From an uncultured virus (IMG/VR IMGVR_UViG_3300021399_000148) (taxonomy: Duplodnaviria; Heunggongvirae; Uroviricota; Caudoviricetes), in IMG/VR virus record IMGVR_UViG_3300021399_000148: a DNA stretch of 64,000 bases. The stretch is one strand, 5' to 3'. Of the stretch, positions 111-54,152 are shown one piece after another (within the stretch, counting starts at the first letter, position 1; every line of letters starts with the position of its first letter). A program made the translations under genes and the position numbers. The notes beneath the pieces are model-generated. The model searched no databases and was not told where the DNA came from. It saw only the letters and a list, made by a program, of their open reading frames with translations.

Positions 111-1022
111 ATGTTAAGACAGGCAGAAAATCGTTGTAAAATTGAAGGTGTATTAAGTGAGATTGATCTTAATCCAAGAACCTTTATGAAGAATGGAAGA
201 GAAGTAGAGGCTATTGGAGGCTCTATTACTGTTAAGGTAAATCAAAAGATTAGTGGTGTAGAAAAAGAGCTGATGATTCCAGTATATATGTTTGCGTCAA
301 AACTTACAAACGCGGGCAAGCCAAATCCAGCTTATGAATCTATTAAAACTGTAATGGATAGTTTTAATTCGATTGCATCTACTGGGGATGAGGATAAGGC
401 TGATAGAATCAGAATTACAAGTGGTAATATTCGTATGAATGAGTATTACGCGGCCGATGGTCACTTGGTTTCGTTCCCAAGAATCCACGCATCTTTTGTA
501 AACAAGATTGGCAAGACTGAGTGTAAGCCAGAGGCAACTTTTGTTCTTCAGTTTGCAGTAGCAAATGCAAATGATGAAGTAAAAAATGACGAGCCGACTG
601 GTCGTTATAAGATTAGTGCGCTCGTACCTCAGTATGGCGGGCAGGTTGATGTGATGCCGCTGTATGCGGAAGCTGAAGGTGTAATCAGTGCAGTATCTAC
701 TTATTGGGGTATTGGTGATACAGTAAAGGCAAATGGTAGACTTGATTTCAGTTCTACAACTGAAGTGGTTTATGAGGAAGTAGATTTTGGTGAGCCAATT
801 GAAAAGGTAAGAACTATCAATAAGAGTGACCTTATTATTACTGGTGGTTCTCAAGAACCGTTTGAGGGTGAATTTGCTTTTGCAAAGGCTGACCTCGATG
901 AGGCTCTTGCTGAAAGAAAGGCTAGACTCGAAGCTAGAAAAGACAGAGATCAGTCTAAGATGTCTACAAGAAAGGCGCCGCCGCAGCATTCCAATACGGG
1001 ATTTGCTGACCTTGGATTTTAA
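111..1022 (+). CDS. Putative single-stranded DNA-binding/recombination protein (two OB-like halves, acidic-aromatic C-terminal tail)
   Basis: 303 aa; SD GAGGT; beta-rich; ends FADLGF; lies before AAA ATPase-helicase-primase as in SPbeta-like replication modules. Confidence 0.55.
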   Translation: MLRQAENRCKIEGVLSEIDLNPRTFMKNGREVEAIGGSITVKVNQKISGVEKELMIPVYMFASKLTNAGKPNPAYESIKTVMDSFNSIASTGDEDKADRIRITSGNIRMNEYYAADGHLVSFPRIHASFVNKIGKTECKPEATFVLQFAVANANDEVKNDEPTGRYKISALVPQYGGQVDVMPLYAEAEGVISAVSTYWGIGDTVKANGRLDFSSTTEVVYEEVDFGEPIEKVRTINKSDLIITGGSQEPFEGEFAFAKADLDEALAERKARLEARKDRDQSKMSTRKAPPQHSNTGFADLGF

Positions 1023-13854: not shown

Positions 13855-16053
13855 ATGCAATACATTAGAAAAAGAGACGGCCGCATAGTTGAATTTAATA
13901 AGAATAAAATTATCAATGCAATTATAAATGCTTTTAAAGAAGTAGATGGAGAAATAACTCCATATGCTTTAGATAAAGCAAATAAAATTGCAGAATATGT
14001 ACAAAAACAAAATAGTGGTAATATTCTTACTGTTGAACAAATTCAAGACCTTGTTGAAAAAGGATTGATGTCAACGCGTAGAAAAGATGTCGCAAGACGT
14101 TATATAATTTATAGAGAAGAACGCAATAAAATTCGCAATTGGAACACACAAATGATGGATAAGGTTGCTATTAAATTAGCTGCTTCTGATGTACAAAACC
14201 AAAATGCGAATGTAGATGAGTATTCTTTTGGCGGACGTAGAGGTGAAGCCGATGCAGTTATTTTTAAACAATATGCTCTTGATAATTTAATGAGCGAGAC
14301 TTCACGAGAAAATCATTTGAATAATGAAATTTATATTCATGATTTAGATAGTTATGCCTTAGGTATGCATAATTGCTTATCAGTTCCATTTGATAAATTA
14401 CTTGCTGAAGGTTTTAATACTAGACAAACAGATGTTCGTCCTGCTAACAGCATTAATACTGCTTTTCAATTGGTGGCAGTTATCTTTCAGCTTCAGTCAC
14501 TTATGCAATTTGGTGGAGTAAGTGCTACACATCTTGATTGGACGATGGTTCCTTATGTAAGGAAAAGTTTTTATAGACATTTCAAAGATGGATTACATTA
14601 TATAGAAGATCCAGTAGGTGATAAGTATTTATCTGAAATAAATCCAGAAATGTCCATCGATGACGATAAATATAAAGAACCATATCACTATGCATATAGA
14701 TATGCTATGGATATGACAATAAGAGAAACTCAACAAGCTGTTGAAGGAATGTATCATAATCTTAATACCCTTCAATCCCGCAGTGGTAACCAGCTGCCTT
14801 TCACCTCAATCAATTATGGAACTTGTACTCTTCCGGAGGGCCGCATGGTGATTGAAGCACTTCTTGAGGGTTCAATTAAGGGCGTTGGTAAATTACATAA
14901 AACAGCGATTTTCCCATGCGGAATTTTTCAATATATGAAAGGAGTTAACAGTGATCCAGGAGATCCCAATTACGATTTGTATAGACTCGCGCTCGAGTCT
15001 ACCGCAAAAAGATTGTACCCAAACTATGCAAACGTTGACTGGAGTGGCAACGCTGGATATGATAGAAGTGACCCCAGAACATATTTTAGCACAATGGGTT
15101 GCAGAACTGCAAATGGAGCCGATATTAACGCCGAGCCTGGGGTCAACCCTCAGACTAAAGATGGACGTGGAAACATTGCGCCCGTAACAATTATTCTACC
15201 AACACTTGCGATGGAAACTGGCAATGTAGAAGATTTCATGGAACTTCTTGATATTAAAATTCATGAAGCTAAAGATATGCTTATTGAACGATATGAATAT
15301 ATTTGTTCACAAGATGCTTCAGCCGCTAAGTTCATGTATGAAAATGGAACAATGATTGGATATAAACCAGAAGAAGGCATACGTTCTGCGCTTAAACATG
15401 GAACAATTGTAATTGGTCAATTAGGTCTTGCAGAATGTTTACAAATTCTTATCGGATGTGATCATACAGAAGAAAAAGGAATGGAACTGGCTAAGCGAAT
15501 TGAACAATTATTCAAAGATAGATGTGCTGAATTTAAACAACAGTATAAACTTAACTTTGGTGTATACTATACTCCAGCAGAAAATCTTTGTTACACCGCT
15601 ATGAAAAAATTCAAGGAAGACTTCGGAGAGATTCCAAACGTAAGTGATAAAGATTACTTCACTAATTCAATGCACGTACCAGTATGGAAAGAAATTTCTC
15701 CATTTGATAAAATTGATATTGAATCTCAGTTAACTGGCTATTCGAGTGCTGGTTGTATTACTTACGTTGAATTAGAAGGCGCGGTATTAAAAAATCTTGA
15801 TGCGCTAGAGCAAATTGTGAATTACGCAATGGATAAAGATGTTCCTTATTTTGCCATAAATGTTCCGAACGATACTTGTATGAATTGTGGATGGACAGGA
15901 GAAATTACTAATGAGTGTCCTGAGTGCGGTTCAACAGATATACAAAGATTGAGAAGAGTAACAGGATATTTAACTGGAGATTATAAAACAGCTTTTAATA
16001 TAGGTAAACAACATGAAGTCGAAGATAGATATAAGCACAGCAATAAGTTGTAA
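13855..16053 (+). CDS. nrdD: Anaerobic (class III) ribonucleoside-triphosphate reductase
   Basis: ATP cone KRDGR, IHDLD, HNC, MGCRT, TPAEN, CxxC-CxxC, RRVTGYL glycyl-radical motif. Confidence 0.95.
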   Translation: MQYIRKRDGRIVEFNKNKIINAIINAFKEVDGEITPYALDKANKIAEYVQKQNSGNILTVEQIQDLVEKGLMSTRRKDVARRYIIYREERNKIRNWNTQMMDKVAIKLAASDVQNQNANVDEYSFGGRRGEADAVIFKQYALDNLMSETSRENHLNNEIYIHDLDSYALGMHNCLSVPFDKLLAEGFNTRQTDVRPANSINTAFQLVAVIFQLQSLMQFGGVSATHLDWTMVPYVRKSFYRHFKDGLHYIEDPVGDKYLSEINPEMSIDDDKYKEPYHYAYRYAMDMTIRETQQAVEGMYHNLNTLQSRSGNQLPFTSINYGTCTLPEGRMVIEALLEGSIKGVGKLHKTAIFPCGIFQYMKGVNSDPGDPNYDLYRLALESTAKRLYPNYANVDWSGNAGYDRSDPRTYFSTMGCRTANGADINAEPGVNPQTKDGRGNIAPVTIILPTLAMETGNVEDFMELLDIKIHEAKDMLIERYEYICSQDASAAKFMYENGTMIGYKPEEGIRSALKHGTIVIGQLGLAECLQILIGCDHTEEKGMELAKRIEQLFKDRCAEFKQQYKLNFGVYYTPAENLCYTAMKKFKEDFGEIPNVSDKDYFTNSMHVPVWKEISPFDKIDIESQLTGYSSAGCITYVELEGAVLKNLDALEQIVNYAMDKDVPYFAINVPNDTCMNCGWTGEITNECPECGSTDIQRLRRVTGYLTGDYKTAFNIGKQHEVEDRYKHSNKL

Positions 16054-16585
16054 CTCAATAATAGCAGGATTATTAATCGGTTTGGGTGTTATTATTAACA
16101 CCCAAATCCAACCTCCAATTTTAGGAGCGTTACTATTTAGTTTTGGATTATTGACAATAATTCAGTTAGAATTGCCACTTTTCACTGGAAAAGTTGGGTT
16201 TTTAGGAGAACATCTATTTCAAATATTACTTTTTAATTTTATAGGAATTAGTATTGCTTTTTATCTCTACTGTCTAAGTAATCCAGAATATTATAATATA
16301 CTACACGACGCGGCCGCCATGAAGTTTTCCAAAACTTATATTCAAATGTTATTTGGCGGTATATTCTGTGGAATACTGATACATTTTGCCGTTAAATGTA
16401 AGACTTCTTATCTAACAGCAATGGCAGTGATAATTTTCATCCTTATCGGCGCGGAACACTGTGTAGCAGATTTTCCCTATTTATTAGTTTGCTTTAACGT
16501 ATACAACCTTATAAAACTTTTATTAGTAATAGTAGGAAATTCAATTGGAGCAATAATTTTGGAAGGAATGATAACGAATGAGTAA
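16013..16585 (+). CDS. Formate/nitrite transporter (FNT) family protein, compact
   Basis: AGLLIGLG, LFSFGL, LFTG, EHCVAD signatures; about 6 TM segments; start uncertain (overlaps nrdD). Confidence 0.8.
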   Translation: MKSKIDISTAISCNSIIAGLLIGLGVIINTQIQPPILGALLFSFGLLTIIQLELPLFTGKVGFLGEHLFQILLFNFIGISIAFYLYCLSNPEYYNILHDAAAMKFSKTYIQMLFGGIFCGILIHFAVKCKTSYLTAMAVIIFILIGAEHCVADFPYLLVCFNVYNLIKLLLVIVGNSIGAIILEGMITNE

Positions 16586-51955: not shown

Positions 51956-52061
51956 GACGCGCCGGGCGCCTCTTCATCGCGTTAAAGTATAAAAGTAATG
52001 TATACAGTATTCTTTTAAAATAAGTCTTGACTTTTTTAGAAATTTCGTTTATAATATATAT

Positions 52062-52143
52062 AGAAAGTGAAGAGAGGAGAAGAAAATAAACGGTATATGG
52101 GGAACACCATCCCATTCCTCTCAATCCGCGCGGATTCACTTTC
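52062..52143 (+). ncRNA. Candidate structured small RNA
   Basis: Own promoter 52027; nested stems; no well-placed SD. Confidence 0.45.
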
Positions 52144-52273
52144 AAATCAATTGTCAAGAGGAGAGATAGTAGGTTTAATAAAGGGTACGCGTTCAATTTT
52201 ATAGCCCATCTCAAAAAATAAAAAAATCCTAAAAACCTCTTGACAAATTTAAAAGTCTATGCTATAATATGAT

Positions 52274-52370
52274 TGTCCTCAAGAGATAGGACATAAAGAA
52301 TTTCTCTTCGGCAAGGGCGTACCCGTTATCTAAGCCTTTCTCAATGGCACTACAAAGTGCCATTGAGAAA
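52274..52370 (+). ncRNA. Candidate pseudoknot-containing small RNA/leader
   Basis: Own promoter 52240; TGTCCT/AGGACA plus AAGAGA/TCTCTT; 15-bp hairpin. Confidence 0.5.
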
Positions 52371-52468
52371 AATAAAAAATTTAAAAAAAGGTATTGACAA
52401 ACTTAAAAAACTATGATATAATGTAAATGTAAGATAAAGGAAAACAAAAGTAAAAGAAAGGAAACACT

Positions 52469-52795
52469 ATGACTCAGAGAGAATTTTTCAACGCAGTTAT
52501 CGCAGAAACTCAGAACACCGCAATCAAAGAGTTTGCAACGAACGCACTTCACAAGATGGATGAACGCAACGCAAACCGTTCTGCAAAACCGTCTAAGACT
52601 CAGATTGAGAACGCACCGCTCATTGCTCAGATTAAAGAGATTCTGACCACTGAACCGATGCTTGCAAGTGAAATTGCAGAAAAGGTTGGAATCTCAACCG
52701 CCAAGGCTTCGGCACTCGTCAAGAAAGTCGAGGGTGTACACGTTACCGATGTAAAGGTAAAGGGAAAGGGTGCGAGAAAGGCATATTCTCTTTAA
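52469..52795 (+). CDS. Winged-helix family protein, paralog 2
   Basis: MTQREF...ASEIAEKVGISTAKASAL. Confidence 0.75.
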   Translation: MTQREFFNAVIAETQNTAIKEFATNALHKMDERNANRSAKPSKTQIENAPLIAQIKEILTTEPMLASEIAEKVGISTAKASALVKKVEGVHVTDVKVKGKGARKAYSL

Positions 52796-52835
52796 TAAAT
52801 AGGGTTTGCGGTCATCCCTTAAAACCGCATTATAT

Positions 52836-52919
52836 GGGATTGTATCTTAAATGGCAAAGTATCTGACCTAAATGCGTGCATATCAGACATTGTGGGTTCG
52901 AATCCCACCAATCCCACCA
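52836..52919 (+). tRNA. tRNA-like RNA with expanded 16-nt anticodon loop (identity undetermined)
   Basis: Acceptor GGGATTG/CAATCCC-A-CCA; T arm GTGGG-TTCGAAT-CCCAC; D loop with GG; stem TCTGA/TCAGA. Confidence 0.75.
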
Positions 52920-52950
52920 CAAATTGACACATTGTTACCTCCTTTTCTTA

Positions 52951-52982
52951 AAGAGAACACCGCAAGTCGGTGTTCTTTTTTT
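52951..52982 (+). terminator. Intrinsic terminator
   Basis: AGAACACCG-CAAGT-CGGTGTTCT-TTTTTT. Confidence 0.8.
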
Positions 52983-52992
52983 CTAGAAAAGA

Positions 52993-53038
52993 CGAACATA
53001 CGTTCGCGGCCGGCCAAATGCAGACGAACATACGTTCC
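52993..53038. promoter_or_regulatory. Two LexA boxes
   Basis: CGAACATACGTTCG 52993 and CGAACATACGTTCC 53025. Confidence 0.8.
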
Positions 53039-53145
53039 CGAAATGCGCCGGGCGCGATTGTATACAATATATTTTTAATTTAGGGGTTGACATTCCTCTT
53101 CATATGTGGTAATATTAATACAGAAAGAAGAAAGGAGGATAACAA

Positions 53146-53304
53146 ATGAACAGAACAAGAAAATTGCATTACGTAGTTAATGGATACGGAGAAATAGTCG
53201 GGCGTTTTACCGATAGATACAGTGCGATTGCTTATATAAGATATTATCATTCTATTTGCCCTAAAGAGTGGGTATTTCTTAGAACGATAACGATAAAAGG
53301 GTAG
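53146..53304 (+). CDS. 52-aa hypothetical protein
   Basis: Own promoter, SD AAGGAGG. Confidence 0.6.
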   Translation: MNRTRKLHYVVNGYGEIVGRFTDRYSAIAYIRYYHSICPKEWVFLRTITIKG

Positions 53305-53431
53305 TATAAATACACAAGAAGACTTATTAATAGATACAAATAAAATTTAAAATTAATTTTTAAAAAGGGGTTGACATTCAACCCTTTTTATGATATTATA
53401 ATTATAGAGAAAAGGAAAGGAGATAGGAACA

Positions 53432-53596
53432 ATGACAAAGATGGAAATGGTAAACAGAATGATAATTCTCGGATGCATCAAGGAATCTGACAGAGCAAAC
53501 ATGATGCGTAGAAGTAAGACAAGAATCACTGAAATCTATATCAGAATCGTTCCCGTCAGACTTGAATGGATTGAAGAAAATAAGAAAAAGGGTTGA
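53432..53596 (+). CDS. 54-aa hypothetical protein
   Basis: Own promoter, SD AAGGAG; stop overlaps next -35. Confidence 0.6.
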   Translation: MTKMEMVNRMIILGCIKESDRANMMRRSKTRITEIYIRIVPVRLEWIEENKKKG

Positions 53597-53652
53597 CAAC
53601 CCTCTTCAATTATGTTATACTATAGATACAATAAAGAAAGGGAGATAACATA

Positions 53653-53916
53653 ATGGAAATGACTAGAATGCAGAGTATATGGAAGGAACTTAACTACATT
53701 GTACTTATCGCACTGATTGCAGGTCAGTGTGTTGTAAAAGCAGACTTTTTAATCGGTCAGTTTGTCTATCTGTTCGCCAATGTAATGTCTTTCACTCGTT
53801 GCTTTGTTCTTGATAGACCAATTGCAGACAAAATCAAAGATGGATGTTGTTTAGGCATCACGACTGGATTAATCGCAATGGTAATTCTTGAAAGTTATGG
53901 GATTCATATTGTATAG
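53653..53916 (+). CDS. Small membrane protein
   Basis: Three hydrophobic segments; own promoter. Confidence 0.65.
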   Translation: MEMTRMQSIWKELNYIVLIALIAGQCVVKADFLIGQFVYLFANVMSFTRCFVLDRPIADKIKDGCCLGITTGLIAMVILESYGIHIV

Positions 53917-53936
53917 GAAAAAGAAGGGAGGAAGAA

Positions 53937-54152
53937 ATGCCTATCACAATTATTGGAAATATTGAAATTAATTTAAATGAAGTCATAGATATTAAATCTA
54001 TTAAAGATAACATTGTAGATATGGTAGTAGACCAAATAGACTATGACATCTATAAAGAAATTATAGAATACAGTCCAAATTCTTATCAGGAACTTATTAA
54101 AGATTGTATGCTTTATATAGCACAATATCTTATCGAAGAATACGAGGGGTAA
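53937..54152 (+). CDS. Small acidic hypothetical protein
   Basis: SD GGGAGG. Confidence 0.65.
   Translation: MPITIIGNIEINLNEVIDIKSIKDNIVDMVVDQIDYDIYKEIIEYSPNSYQELIKDCMLYIAQYLIEEYEG

What the first reader, a model, noticed from the sequence alone, without database searches (positions are those of the whole stretch)
52836..52919. tRNA mimic with intact acceptor/T arms but a 16-nt anticodon loop
Seen: perfect 7-bp acceptor stem, encoded CCA, canonical TTCGAAT loop and intact 5-bp anticodon stem, but the loop is CCTAAATGCGTGCATA (no U33; internal ATGC/GCAT pairing possible). Inference: stems stay perfect while decoding is lost, suggesting a functional non-decoding RNA, such as a decoy for anticodon nucleases, T-box/RelA sensing or synthetases, rather than decay. 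That would fit the CodY/amino-acid theme of the island.
Basis: partly seen in the sequence, partly recalled or inferred. Interest (0 to 1): 0.7.

Follow-up and report, generated by a model that had tools for sequence, protein, structure and literature searches.

The report
Remodelled phage leucine-tRNA that cannot decode
A ruminant-gut phage carries, just behind an early gene, a former leucine tRNA whose anticodon arm has been rebuilt so that it can no longer read codons, and it sits in a swappable slot where related phages carry normal lysine or asparagine tRNAs or other odd tRNA look-alikes.

Summary
Window 52836-52919(+) has a perfect 7-bp acceptor stem, a GTGGG/TTCGAAT/CCCAC T arm, A73, an encoded CCA, and a perfect 5-bp stem closing a 16-nt loop. 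Rfam tRNA scores 53.1 bits; ARAGORN calls nothing.

The setting is a large phage, not a bacterial CodY island.

The element is a remodelled class II tRNA-Leu(UAA). Its "16-nt loop" is the old 7-nt loop (CCUAAAU, with U33 changed to C), the old 3' stem strand GCGUG, and CAUA. Relative L103 still reads as tRNA-Leu(UAA).

It is cargo in a conserved cassette: winged-helix gene, pseudoknot-like motif 5-11 nt after the stop codon, tRNA or tRNA-like, pyrimidine tract CCUCCUUU about 21 nt further on, terminator.
- Of 118 unique cassettes, ARAGORN cargos; 44 are Lys or Asn.
- 29 more have a T arm and acceptor stem but no call.
- The nearest relatives, about 95% identical in the flanks, carry a 40-nt mini pseudoknot instead.

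Best reading (0.4): a non-decoding tRNA-shaped module kept for its top half, as a signal for RNase P and 3' processing. Rivals are a decoy (0.25), a decaying pseudogene (0.25), a charged non-decoding RNA (0.07) and a spliced decoding tRNA (0.03). No RNA data exist.

Earlier notes of this scan describe similar phage tRNA look-alikes on other genomes.

The parts
52394..52422 (+). Promoter-like site TTGACA-17-TATAAT with TG extension, upstream of the winged-helix gene
   Evidence: 12 of 12 consensus matches. Its function is inferred.
52469..52795 (+). 108-aa winged-helix gene (P0001), the gene whose 3' UTR holds the cassette
   Evidence: ORF. Weak Pfam HTH hits. AlphaFold pLDDT 89.8. Best Foldseek matches are PadR/ArsR-type, E about 0.02. 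Homologues precede the pseudoknot motif in 100 of 107 assessable cassettes.
52802..52829 (+). Conserved pseudoknot-like motif GGGTTTGCGGTCATCCCTTAAAACCGCA. Proposed stems are S1 GGG/CCC and S2 UGCGGU/ACCGCA. It starts 6 nt after the stop codon.
   Evidence: Exact motif found in 13 viral loci, at least 123 metagenome loci and 1 genome locus. S2 hairpin folds at -7.3 kcal/mol. The pseudoknot itself is inferred: the search pattern fixed both stems, so no covariation could be seen.
52830..52835 (+). 6-nt leader between the pseudoknot motif and the tRNA-like 5' end
   Evidence: Relatives have leaders of 3-10 nt.
52836..52919 (+). tRNA-like RNA gene, a remodelled class II tRNA-Leu(UAA). Acceptor 52836-42/52909-15; D arm 52845-60; stem 52862-66/52883-87; 16-nt loop 52867-82; T arm 52892-908; A73 52916; CCA 52917-19.
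   Evidence: Rfam tRNA 53.1 bits. Alignment A1 with L103, L063, L130 and canonical phage tRNA-Leu(UAA) genes. The cloverleaf fold is the constrained MFE at -18.3 kcal/mol.
52867..52873 (+). Remnant of the ancestral 7-nt anticodon loop CCUAAAU, with UAA at positions 34-36, A37, and U33 changed to C
   Evidence: Aligns to CUUAAAU of L103 and L063.
52874..52878 (+). Remnant of the ancestral 3' strand of the anticodon stem (GCGUG), now unpaired inside the big loop
   Evidence: Identical to L103 and L063, where it pairs with CGUGC. In the window only 3 of 5 pairs are possible, and forcing them costs energy (-10.6 against -15.2 kcal/mol).
52920..52949 (+). 3' trailer with the pyrimidine tract ACCUCCUUUUCUU (52937-52949), which resembles the 16S rRNA 3' tail. 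CCUCC starts 21 nt after A73.
   Evidence: YCUCC lies within the first 60 nt of the trailer in 63 of 79 cassettes, and GGAGR in 0 of 79. It is unpaired in the MFE fold. Its function is unknown.
52950..52986 (+). Intrinsic terminator: 13-bp hairpin followed by a U run
   Evidence: MFE -17 kcal/mol, z -3.64, and 0 of 200 shuffles fold as well. The consensus scan missed it, probably because the stem extends into the T run.

Best explanation
The element is a former class II tRNA-Leu(UAA) gene, carried as the cargo of an early-transcript cassette of a ruminant-gut phage. It is co-transcribed with the upstream winged-helix gene from the 52394 promoter and ends at the 52950 terminator.

Its anticodon arm has been rebuilt. 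The old 5' stem strand position now pairs with what used to be variable-arm sequence. The old loop and old 3' strand therefore form a 16-nt loop, U33 is lost, and the RNA cannot decode.

What is kept intact is the tRNA top half: acceptor stem, T arm, the D/T elbow, A73 and CCA. I think it most likely persists as a tRNA-shaped processing and stability module. Host RNase P would cut at its 5' end, leaving the mRNA capped by the pseudoknot motif. 3' processing at the CCA end would release the trailer that carries the CCUCCUUU tract.

Shown here: the homology to tRNA-Leu(UAA), the loss of a decodable loop, the cassette architecture and its swapping between relatives.
Inferred: transcription, RNase P and 3'-end cleavage, and any benefit to the phage.
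For: 1. Ancestry. Alignment A1 shows the same acceptor stem and T arm as phage tRNA-Leu(UAA) genes L016, L017 and L022. Relative L103 is called tRNA-Leu(taa), 86 nt, by ARAGORN.
2. No decoding. The loop is 16 nt with C33, and ARAGORN makes no call.
3. The top half is conserved. The tRNA-like is 80-85% identical to L103, L063 and L130, against 57-71% for the coding end, leader and trailer. The acceptor stem, T stem, T loop except one position (G/A in L063), and A73 are invariant across all 7 rows of A1; the CCA is encoded in 4 of the 7.
4. The new stem is unlikely by chance (0.28-1.4% of shuffles). The resulting cloverleaf is the constrained MFE (-18.3 kcal/mol).
5. Architecture. There is no promoter between the gene and the tRNA-like, a 12/12 promoter lies upstream, and a strong terminator lies downstream.
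6. Across 118 cassettes, the parts common to all cargo types are the acceptor stem plus T arm (79 of 118 by my scan) and the fixed trailer. Anticodon regions range from canonical to absent (58-60-nt forms) to large inserts.
7. Near relatives replace the pseudoknot plus tRNA-like by a 40-nt pseudoknot ending in CCCA, in front of the same trailer. This fits a shared structural or processing role better than a decoding role.
8. Precedent: t-elements of plant mitochondria are tRNA-like structures proposed to act as RNase P/Z signals at mRNA ends (abstract of PMC1920247).
Against: - No RNA evidence at all: no listed holder run is on record as RNA.
- The exact variant was seen only in the window, in L073 and in runs of one study. 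Its own long-term conservation is therefore unknown.
- Relatives from three other studies (X5, X7, X12), 95% or more identical in the flanks, do not cover the tRNA-like; X7 and X12 demonstrably join across it with a mini pseudoknot. It is therefore dispensable.
- A pure processing role does not explain why canonical cargos are so strongly Lys/Asn (44 of 54 ARAGORN calls).
- It also does not explain why some non-canonical cargos keep covarying stems and conserved big loops.
- Overall folding energy is not exceptional (z -0.94).
- The D stem has a mismatch.
Confidence: 0.4

Rival explanations
1. Decoy or sponge. After processing, the tRNA-shaped RNA accumulates early in infection and binds a host factor that attacks or senses tRNAs. 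Candidates are an anticodon-arm nuclease, an acceptor-end-modifying toxin, or LeuRS. It would be a non-productive ligand that protects the real tRNA pool.
For: - The same slot carries tRNA-Lys(UUU) 14 times, tRNA-Lys(CUU) 14 times and tRNA-Asn(GUU) 16 times among 54 ARAGORN calls.
- tRNA-Lys is the documented target of PrrC, PARIS AriB and a bacterial Schlafen, and phage tRNAs neutralise such systems (passages read in PMC10264068, PMC11464382, PMC13056530).
- The cargo is swapped between phages about 95% identical in the flanks, and at least 8 cargo classes occur. This is the pattern of an arms-race locus.
- Non-canonical classes keep stems by compensatory change: class F has 2 of 5 pairs changed on both sides and 100% of cells paired.
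- The loop block UAAAUGCGUGCAUA is 14/14 identical between the window and L103/L063, although the flanking stems differ at 6 of 10 positions.
Against: - No nuclease or partner is identified.
- No defence known to me targets bacterial tRNA-Leu(UAA).
- The AT-rich codon usage of this phage (UUA 35, AAA 62, AAU 50 per 1000 codons) explains Lys, Asn and Leu cargos by codon supply as well.
- The mini pseudoknot that replaces the element in near relatives has no anticodon arm at all.
- No published case of a non-decoding phage tRNA decoy turned up in searches.
Confidence: 0.25
2. Decaying pseudogene. A tRNA-Leu(UAA) cargo lost selection for decoding in this lineage and is drifting. The perfect new stem is luck or a leftover.
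For:
- L130 shows a different, independent degradation: G33 and a U-U in the stem.
- There is a U33-to-C change and a D-stem mismatch.
- The cassette is absent from the nearest relatives.
- The variant was seen in one study only.
Against: - The acceptor stem, T arm, A73 and CCA carry no damage.
- The six differences from L103 in the two stem strands create a perfect 5-bp helix in exact tRNA register (p about 0.003-0.014).
- The tRNA-like is more conserved than its flanks.
- Non-decoding cargos recur and are structurally maintained in this slot.
- Lytic phage genomes rarely keep junk (established knowledge).
Confidence: 0.25
3. Charged but non-decoding tRNA. LeuRS still leucylates it, because A73 and the D/T elbow are present. 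The Leu-RNA would then serve a non-ribosomal purpose or sequester LeuRS or EF-Tu.
For: - A73, A14, G18G19 and the T loop are intact.
- From recall, not checked here: E. coli LeuRS does not read the anticodon and accepts minimal tRNA-Leu lacking the anticodon arm.
Against: - No aminoacyl-tRNA-dependent transferase was recognised in the window.
- The host LeuRS identity set is unknown.
- This reading does not explain the cargo diversity.
Confidence: 0.07
4. It is still a decoding tRNA. A 9-nt intron-like insert would be removed, or the large loop tolerated.
For: ARAGORN with the intron option and the score threshold lowered to 80% (-ps80) proposes tRNA-Cys(GCA) with a 9-nt insert at position 32/33. 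Lak megaphage tRNAs have unexplained introns (passages read in PMC6784885).
Against: - The proposed product has U37 and A73, whereas Cys tRNAs have U73 (recalled), and the insert position is non-canonical.
- Homology shows that the 'insert' is the old Leu anticodon loop plus the old stem strand.
- No intron family hit in Rfam.
- Bacteria lack a bulge-helix-bulge endonuclease (established knowledge).
Confidence: 0.03

Closest known systems
t-elements of plant mitochondria (Forner et al. 2007, PMC1920247; abstract read) and, from recall, the mascRNA tRNA-like signal at the MALAT1 3' end
   Same: A tRNA-like structure embedded next to an mRNA end, thought to be used as a cut signal for RNase P and/or RNase Z rather than for decoding.
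   Different: This element is in a bacteriophage. It has a traceable origin from tRNA-Leu(UAA), an encoded CCA, an upstream pseudoknot motif and a fixed downstream CCUCCUUU tract. Cleavage is not shown.
Phage tRNAs that neutralise tRNA-cleaving defences: T5 tRNA-Lys against PARIS (PMC11464382, passages read) and anticodon-loop variants (PMC10264068, passages read)
   Same: Phage-borne tRNA genes with changed anticodon stem-loops. Relatives of this cassette carry mostly Lys and Asn tRNAs.
   Different: Those tRNAs still decode and replace the cleaved host tRNA. This one has a 16-nt loop without U33 and cannot.
'Enigmatic' introns in Lak megaphage tRNAs (PMC6784885, passages read)
   Same: Phage tRNA genes with extra sequence in the anticodon region, conserved across samples, of unknown processing.
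   Different: Here the extra length is not an insertion. It is a re-pairing of existing class II tRNA segments.
tmRNA tRNA-like domain and plant-virus tRNA-like structures (recalled; the Rfam tmRNA models were tested)
   Same: A non-decoding RNA that keeps only the acceptor/T half. Pseudoknots lie next to it.
   Different: The window element has G3-C70, not G3-U70, and no tag frame. Rfam tmRNA_permuted scores only 20.5 bits against a gathering score of 47. A different cargo class (L036 and others) comes closer.
tRNA-like 'stable RNAs' of phages T4 (species 1) and T5 (RNA1/2). Named from recall and from earlier scan note e1-5732831; not checked here.
   Same: Early-expressed phage RNAs that are tRNA-shaped but lack a normal anticodon loop, with unknown function.
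   Different: No sequence relation was tested, and the cassette context differs.

Membership tests
Canonical decoding tRNA (Rfam RF00005) | Cloverleaf top half: 7-bp acceptor stem, T arm with a TTCRANT loop, GG in the D loop | tested here: met
   53.1 bits against a gathering score of 29. The only non-standard pair is U10-U25.
Canonical decoding tRNA (Rfam RF00005) | 7-nt anticodon loop with U33 and a purine at 37, closed by a 5-bp stem | tested here: not met
   The loop is 16 nt with C at position 33. ARAGORN with default settings finds nothing.
Class II tRNA-Leu(UAA) | Sequence homology to tRNA-Leu(UAA) genes, and A73 | tested here: met
   Alignment A1. L103 is called tRNA-Leu(taa). A73 is at 52916.
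Class II tRNA-Leu(UAA) | UAA presented in a 7-nt loop on its own 5-bp stem, plus a long variable-arm hairpin | tested here: not met
   Only 3 of the 5 old pairs are possible and forcing them is unfavourable (-10.6 against -15.2 kcal/mol). The variable-arm sequence is used by the new stem.
Class II tRNA-Leu(UAA) | Leucylation by LeuRS | not testable with these tools
   Needs an aminoacylation assay.
Intron-containing tRNA (group I, bulge-helix-bulge, or Lak-type) | An insert whose removal leaves a canonical tRNA, and a recognisable intron fold | tested here: not met
   ARAGORN with the intron option and the score threshold lowered to 80% (-ps80) gives only a Cys(GCA) model with U37 and a 32/33 insert. 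No intron family in Rfam. Homology explains the extra 9 nt as old loop plus stem strand.
tmRNA | G3-U70, a tag reading frame, and a score at the Rfam or ARAGORN threshold | tested here: not met
   The pair is G3-C70. ARAGORN finds no tmRNA. tmRNA_permuted scores 20.5 bits against 47.
tRNA-like processing signal (t-element / mascRNA type) | tRNA-like fold inside a longer transcript, next to an mRNA end | tested here: met
   It lies 40 nt after the stop codon, with no promoter in between and a terminator 31 nt downstream.
tRNA-like processing signal (t-element / mascRNA type) | Cleavage by RNase P and RNase Z at its ends | not testable with these tools
   No RNA run holds the stretch.
Phage anti-nuclease replacement tRNA | A functional decoding tRNA of the targeted isoacceptor with anticodon stem-loop substitutions | tested here: not met
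   The window element is non-decodable. Canonical Lys/Asn cargos in relatives would qualify.

The most novel reading that the evidence does not exclude
Ruminant-gut phages keep a hypervariable early RNA cassette (post-stop pseudoknot, tRNA-shaped cargo, 16S-tail-like CCUCCUUU tract, terminator). Its non-decoding cargos, including this rebuilt tRNA-Leu with a 16-nt loop, would be a family of RNA decoys or inhibitors aimed at host tRNA-targeting (and perhaps anti-SD-targeting) defences. They would be exchanged between phages like anti-defence genes.
Probability: 0.2. Interest if true: 0.85.

Novelty: new variant of a known kind. Interest (0 to 1): 0.58.

Why it matters
Phage tRNAs are now known to counter tRNA-cleaving immunity, but only as working replacements. 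This case is different. A phage tRNA was rebuilt so that it cannot decode yet keeps every feature needed to be recognised as a tRNA. It sits in a slot that related phages fill with Lys/Asn tRNAs, other expanded-loop look-alikes, or a mini pseudoknot.

If the cargo is only a cut signal, this is a bacterial-virus counterpart of mitochondrial t-elements. If it is a decoy, it would be a new class of RNA anti-defence.

Either way, the cassette gives an experimentally tractable set of natural variants: more than 100 sequences held here. The same set can be used to ask what tRNA-shaped non-decoding RNAs do in phages, including the old question of the T4 and T5 tRNA-like stable RNAs.

Tried and rejected
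- Exact or near relatives in phage GenBank records: none.
- The window's own assembly is not held. The nearest record, G001, has no match.
- IMG/VR scans returned nothing for a 31-mer of the element, for a loop-plus-T-arm pattern, and for two 5'-half patterns. The pattern was mis-designed and could not have matched the window type.
- RNA evidence: no RNA holder is listed.
- Intron reading: rejected.
- tmRNA reading for the window element: rejected.
- Theta (HDV-like) ribozyme: these sit within 5 nt of the associated tRNA's end and are larger. The 28-nt motif here lies upstream of the tRNA-like. The comparison rests on passages read, and no sequence test was possible.
- Known riboswitch or ribozyme for the pseudoknot motif: no Rfam hit at E up to 10 in 52000-54000 or at E up to 0.5 in 12 related loci.
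- Minus-strand gene behind the 'SD' that is the complement of CCUCC: read by eye in five cassettes, the minus-strand frames are not conserved (38 aa, 22 aa, M-stop, 4 aa, none). Rejected.
- Cis-pairing of the CCUCCUUU tract with the RBS of the upstream gene: the RBS is AGAAAGGAAA in 11 of the 14 loci (L001-L011) and in the window, whether or not they carry the cassette; L012-L014 differ. No specific support.
- Antisense target of the 16-nt loop inside the window: only a chance-level 3-mismatch site.
- RNA repair or tRNA enzymes in the window: none recognised.
- Integration-site (att) reading: the element is full length, lies inside a 3' UTR cassette, and no integrase was seen. Rejected.
- Covariation test of the 5' pseudoknot: impossible, because the search pattern fixed both stems.
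Full report
**1. What is at the coordinates**

Window 52836-52919(+) reads GGGATTG TA TCTT AAATGGCA AAGT A TCTGA CCTAAATGCGTGCATA TCAGA CATT GTGGG TTCGAAT CCCAC CAATCCC A CCA.

- a perfect 7-bp acceptor stem;
- A73 and an encoded CCA;
- a canonical T arm;
- a perfect 5-bp stem closing a 16-nt loop that has C where U33 should be.

The Rfam tRNA model matches end to end at 53.1 bits (gathering score 29, E 4.3e-10). It places 12 nt where the model has 3 and flags U10-U25 as the only bad pair. ARAGORN finds no tRNA or tmRNA anywhere in the 64-kb window.

The unconstrained MFE is ordinary: -20.0 kcal/mol, z -0.94, and 40 of 200 shuffles fold as well. With the acceptor stem, D stem and T stem fixed, the cloverleaf with the 5-bp stem is the optimum at -18.3 kcal/mol.

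The suggested ATGC/GCAT pairing would leave a 2-nt loop and is not a feasible hairpin.

**2. The setting is a phage, not a bacterial island**

The window has 35.3% G+C. PHROG matches include:
- DnaB-like helicase, primase and RecJ-like exonuclease;
- a 1339-aa DNA polymerase;
- NrdD and its activase;
- dUTPase and a resolvase;
- terminase and portal;
- virion proteins and a 3560-aa tape-measure-like ORF.

The window's own assembly is not held, and the nearest record is a virus fragment. Runs that hold parts of the stretch are labelled sheep, goat, bovine or unspecified gut metagenomes. Nothing supports a CodY or amino-acid theme.

The gene just upstream (52469-52795, 108 aa) is a small winged-helix protein:
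- weak HTH hits in Pfam;
- a weak profile hit to MJ223;
- a model with pLDDT 89.8;
- best Foldseek matches of PadR/ArsR type at E about 0.02, none at E 0.001 or better.

**3. Ancestry: a rebuilt class II tRNA-Leu(UAA)**

The 3' 30 nt of the element are identical to phage tRNA-Leu(UAA) and tRNA-Tyr genes found with a 25-nt pattern.

Three closer relatives came from metagenome loci that share the upstream motif: L103, L063 and L130. ARAGORN calls L103 a class II tRNA-Leu(taa) of 86 nt, but calls nothing in L063, L130 or the window-identical L073.

In alignment A1 the segments line up as follows:

| Segment | L103 / L063 | Window | Change |
|---|---|---|---|
| Anticodon loop | CUUAAAU | CCUAAAU | UAA still at 34-36, A37 kept, U33 to C |
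| 3' strand of anticodon stem | GCGUG | GCGUG | none |
| Next 4 nt | CAUA | CAUA | none |
| 5' strand of anticodon stem | CGUGC | UCUGA | 4 of 5 |
| Variable-region block | GCAGG | UCAGA | 2 of 5 |

UCUGA and UCAGA are perfectly complementary. So the "16-nt anticodon loop" is the old loop, plus the old 3' stem strand, plus 4 nt. The new helix turns a class II body into a class I-like cloverleaf with a 4-nt variable region.

Forcing the old pairing in the window is unfavourable (-10.6 kcal/mol, against -15.2 with no stem there and -18.3 with the new stem). A perfect 5-bp helix in a tRNA-compatible register arises in 0.28% (strict) to 1.4% (relaxed) of 200,000 shuffles.

L130 has lost decoding in a different way. 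It has G33, a U-U in the stem, and a G-to-U change that improves an alternative 8-bp hairpin. For L103, that alternative hairpin is also 9 kcal/mol better than the cloverleaf, so even its tRNA status is not certain.

**4. The cassette**

The element is cargo in a repeated layout.

(a) The winged-helix gene. In 100 of the 107 cassettes where at least 25 residues could be read upstream, the preceding ORF is a homologue of this protein.

(b) The pseudoknot-like motif.
- A nearly invariant 27-28-nt motif, GGGTTTGCGGT-NNN-CCCTTAAAACCGC, starts 5-11 nt after the stop codon in 108 of 118 cassettes. The spacing is 6 nt in 41, 7 in 25 and 8 in 23.
- It can be drawn as an H-type pseudoknot (GGG/CCC and UGCGGU/ACCGCA). 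My search pattern fixed both stems, so no covariation could be seen and the fold is only a proposal.

(c) The cargo, starting 3-10 nt further on.

(d) The trailer. In 63 of 79 cassettes a pyrimidine tract YCUCC, mostly UUCCUCCUUUCUU or CACCUCCUUUC, lies in the first 60 nt of the trailer. All 63 offsets are 20-36 nt after the discriminator. GGAGR occurs in 0 of 79.

(e) A terminator. In the window it folds at -17 kcal/mol, z -3.64.

A 12/12 promoter-like site lies upstream of the gene, and none lies between the gene and the cargo. Co-transcription is inferred from this.

**5. Census of the cargo**

I found 141 motif instances, which collapse to 118 unique cassettes when collapsed on identity of the first 200 nt from the motif's start. 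These are not phylogenetically independent.

ARAGORN with default settings calls a tRNA within 40 nt of the motif in 54 of the 118:

| ARAGORN call | Number |
|---|---|
| Asn(GUU) | 16 |
| Lys(UUU) | 14 |
| Lys(CUU) | 14 |
| Glu | 2 |
| Leu | 2 |
| Asp | 1 |
| Doubtful calls on odd bodies (L006, L008, L138, L055, L089) | 5 |

My own scan for a 5-bp T stem, a T[TG][CT][GA]A-type loop and an acceptor helix with at least 6 of 7 pairs finds 79 of 118. Of these, 29 have no ARAGORN call. Two of those 29 (L069, L097) are long spans that contain a normal tRNA further on.

The uncalled ones fall into recurrent classes:
- 58-60-nt forms without an anticodon arm.
- 76-nt forms with a 14-nt loop.
- The window class.
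- 85-86-nt forms with a 7-bp stem and a 15-nt loop.
- 88-90-nt forms with a 5-bp stem and a 15-17-nt loop.
- 97-100-nt forms with G3-U70 that hit the Rfam tmRNA model at 26.3 bits.

In the 88-90-nt class the anticodon-like stem is paired in all 25 cells, and 2 of 5 pairs are changed on both sides. That is 5 sequences, probably two lineages.

Of the 39 cassettes without a T-arm hit, I classed the following by eye:
- about 10 go straight from the motif to an SD and an ORF;
- about 6 go to a terminator or promoter;
- several are truncated or carry variant T loops.

**6. The slot is swapped between near-identical phages**

I laid contigs of four runs on 52469-53000.
- Run X2, which may be the window's own source, has a contig identical over the whole stretch.
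- Run X7, from another study, has a 3755-nt contig with 14 differences in 321 nt upstream and 1 in 84 nt downstream. It joins 52789 to 52917, with 40 other letters in place of the 127 nt that hold the pseudoknot motif and the tRNA-like.
- Run X12 has a 4552-nt contig with 16 differences in 329 nt upstream and 0 in 72 nt downstream. It does the same, with 45 letters between.
- Run X5 shows the same kind of sequence as a loose end before 52917.

The replacement is the mini element also seen in L002 and L004. It has an AUGGC/GCCAU stem that covaries (UGGU/ACCA in L004, AGCGU/ACGCU in X12), interleaved with GUGGG/CCCAC and followed by CCCA. This is an H-type pseudoknot that again starts 5-7 nt after the stop codon and precedes the same trailer.

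Among the 14 IMG/VR loci that encode homologues of the 108-aa protein:
- 3 carry the motif plus a tRNA-like (L006, L008, L009; the last two are identical);
- 2 carry the mini pseudoknot (L002, L004);
- 9 carry only a terminator.

The cargo is therefore accessory and mobile.

**7. Conservation**

The window element is 80-85% identical to L103, L063 and L130. The last 40 nt before the motif, the leader and the trailer are 57-71% identical.

Differences cluster in the D stem, the two strands of the new helix, position 33, and the region before the T arm. The block UAAAUGCGUGCAUA is 14/14 identical to L103 and L063. The acceptor stem, T stem, T loop except one position (G/A in L063), and A73 are invariant across all seven rows of A1. 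The CCA is encoded in 4 of the 7 rows.

**8. How it most likely works**

Decoding is excluded for practical purposes. What selection has visibly kept is the top half of the tRNA and its place in the cassette.

I therefore rank first (0.4) a processing and stability role. RNase P would cut at 52835/52836 and leave the winged-helix mRNA ending in the pseudoknot motif. 3' processing at the CCA end would free the trailer with its single-stranded CCUCCUUU tract and terminator hairpin. This works like the t-elements of plant mitochondria (abstract read). It explains three things: why anything from a normal tRNA to an armless 58-nt form to a CCCA-tailed pseudoknot can occupy the slot, why the trailer keeps a fixed distance, and why the anticodon region is free to change.

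It does not explain the Lys/Asn bias of canonical cargos or the maintained big-loop stems. Those features, together with the swapping between near-identical phages, fit the decoy reading (0.25).
- tRNA-Lys is the target of PrrC, AriB and a bacterial Schlafen, and phage tRNAs neutralise such systems (passages read).
- The bias also fits codon supply, since this phage uses AAA, AAU and UUA heavily.

A decaying pseudogene (0.25) is favoured by the canonical loop in L103 and L063 and by the element's absence from the nearest relatives. It is disfavoured by the flawless top half and the improbable new helix. Charging by LeuRS without decoding (0.07) and a spliced decoding tRNA (0.03) are minor options.

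**9. Novelty and literature**

Searches were read as listings. Passages were read in six papers: PMC10879173, PMC13056530, PMC10264068, PMC10690425, PMC6784885 and PMC11464382. The abstract and outline were read for PMC1920247.

None of this turned up a description of this cassette, of a tRNA-Leu rebuilt in this way, or of a non-decoding phage tRNA decoy.
- PMC10690425 reports unnamed tRNA-like candidates in phages in general. Its supplements were not read and may list related motifs.
- Lak megaphage tRNAs have unexplained introns.

Earlier notes of this scan describe comparable phage tRNA look-alikes on other genomes. They include expanded anticodon loops and a 45-nt top-half mimic with a pseudoknot cap, read there as a cut signal. 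These are unchecked AI notes. They agree with my reading but are not evidence.

I class the finding as a new variant of a known kind: a non-decoding tRNA-like RNA or t-element. The cassette as a whole is the more novel part.

**10. Limits**

- No RNA data.
- The host is unknown.
- Only one lineage of the exact variant was seen.
- Cassette counts come from pattern-based sampling with a capped scan.
- The pseudoknot and the role of the CCUCCUUU tract are unexplained.

Noticed in passing
window 52802-52829; loci L006, L008, L027-L163: A nearly invariant 27-28-nt motif, GGGTTTGCGGT-NNN-CCCTTAAAACCGC, can be drawn as an H-type pseudoknot. It sits 5-11 nt after the stop codon of the 108-aa winged-helix gene family in 100 of 107 assessable cassettes. 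It matches no Rfam family. About ten times it is followed directly by an SD and an ORF instead of a tRNA.
   Followed up: partly
window 52937-52949; trailers of 79 related cassettes: A pyrimidine tract YCUCCUUUCU resembles the 3' tail of 16S rRNA. It lies 20-36 nt after the tRNA or tRNA-like end in 63 of 79 cassettes, GGAGR occurs in 0 of 79, and it comes just before the terminator. It could be an anti-SD small RNA released as a 3' trailer. Frames on the minus strand behind its complement are not conserved.
   Followed up: partly
window 52790-52916, against contigs of runs X7, X12, X5 and loci L002:3325-3370, L004:3325-3370: Phages about 95% identical in the flanks replace the pseudoknot motif and the tRNA-like by a 40-45-nt mini pseudoknot. 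Its S1 stem covaries (AUGGC/GCCAU, UGGU/ACCA, AGCGU/ACGCU), its S2 stem is GUGGG/CCCAC, and its tail is CCCA. It may be a pseudoknotted mimic of the acceptor/T minihelix.
   Followed up: partly
L036, L060, L062, L092 (cargo of 97-100 nt): A cargo class with acceptor GGGGGUG/CACCUCC (G3-U70, A73) and a T arm hits the Rfam tmRNA model at 26.3 bits (E 5.6e-7, below the gathering score of 47). It is far too short for a normal tmRNA, and no convincing tag frame was seen.
   Followed up: partly
L033, L039, L075 (cargo with variant T loop TGCAAGT): A covarying 5-bp stem (GCAAG/CUUGC, ACAAG/CUUGU, GUAAG/CUUAC) closes a conserved 16-nt loop, CAGUUGC(A/G)UAAUAGCC. Read in one frame the loop gives Ala/Val-Val-Ala followed by two stop codons.
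   Followed up: no
L129 (about 430-700, minus strand of the locus): A tRNA-Lys(UUU) gene is identical to that of L071 up to CUUUU of the anticodon loop. It is then interrupted by an insert that contains an SD-like site and an ATG. This may be an intron with a homing-endonuclease gene.
   Followed up: no
window 52993-53006 and 53025-53038: Two palindromes, CGAACATACGTTCG and CGAACATACGTTCC, lie between the terminator and the next promoter (53087-53115). They resemble the Gram-positive LexA (Cheo) box as I recall it. Similar boxes (CGAACATATGTTCG) follow the terminator in many relatives.
   Followed up: no
window 52240-52268 and 52329-52376: A second 12/12 promoter-like site lies 150 nt upstream of the first. 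It is followed by a roughly 120-nt non-coding stretch with a long perfect hairpin (TCTCAATGGCACT...AGTGCCATTGAGA). This could be a leader or a small RNA.
   Followed up: no
window 52857-52829 (minus strand): A promoter-like site, TTGCCA-17-TATAAT (11 of 12), lies on the minus strand inside the tRNA-like and its leader. It would drive antisense transcription into the winged-helix gene.
   Followed up: no
window 16013-16585: A 190-aa phage ORF between the NrdD and NrdG homologues matches the formate/nitrite transporter family (Pfam PF01226, E 4e-16).
   Followed up: no
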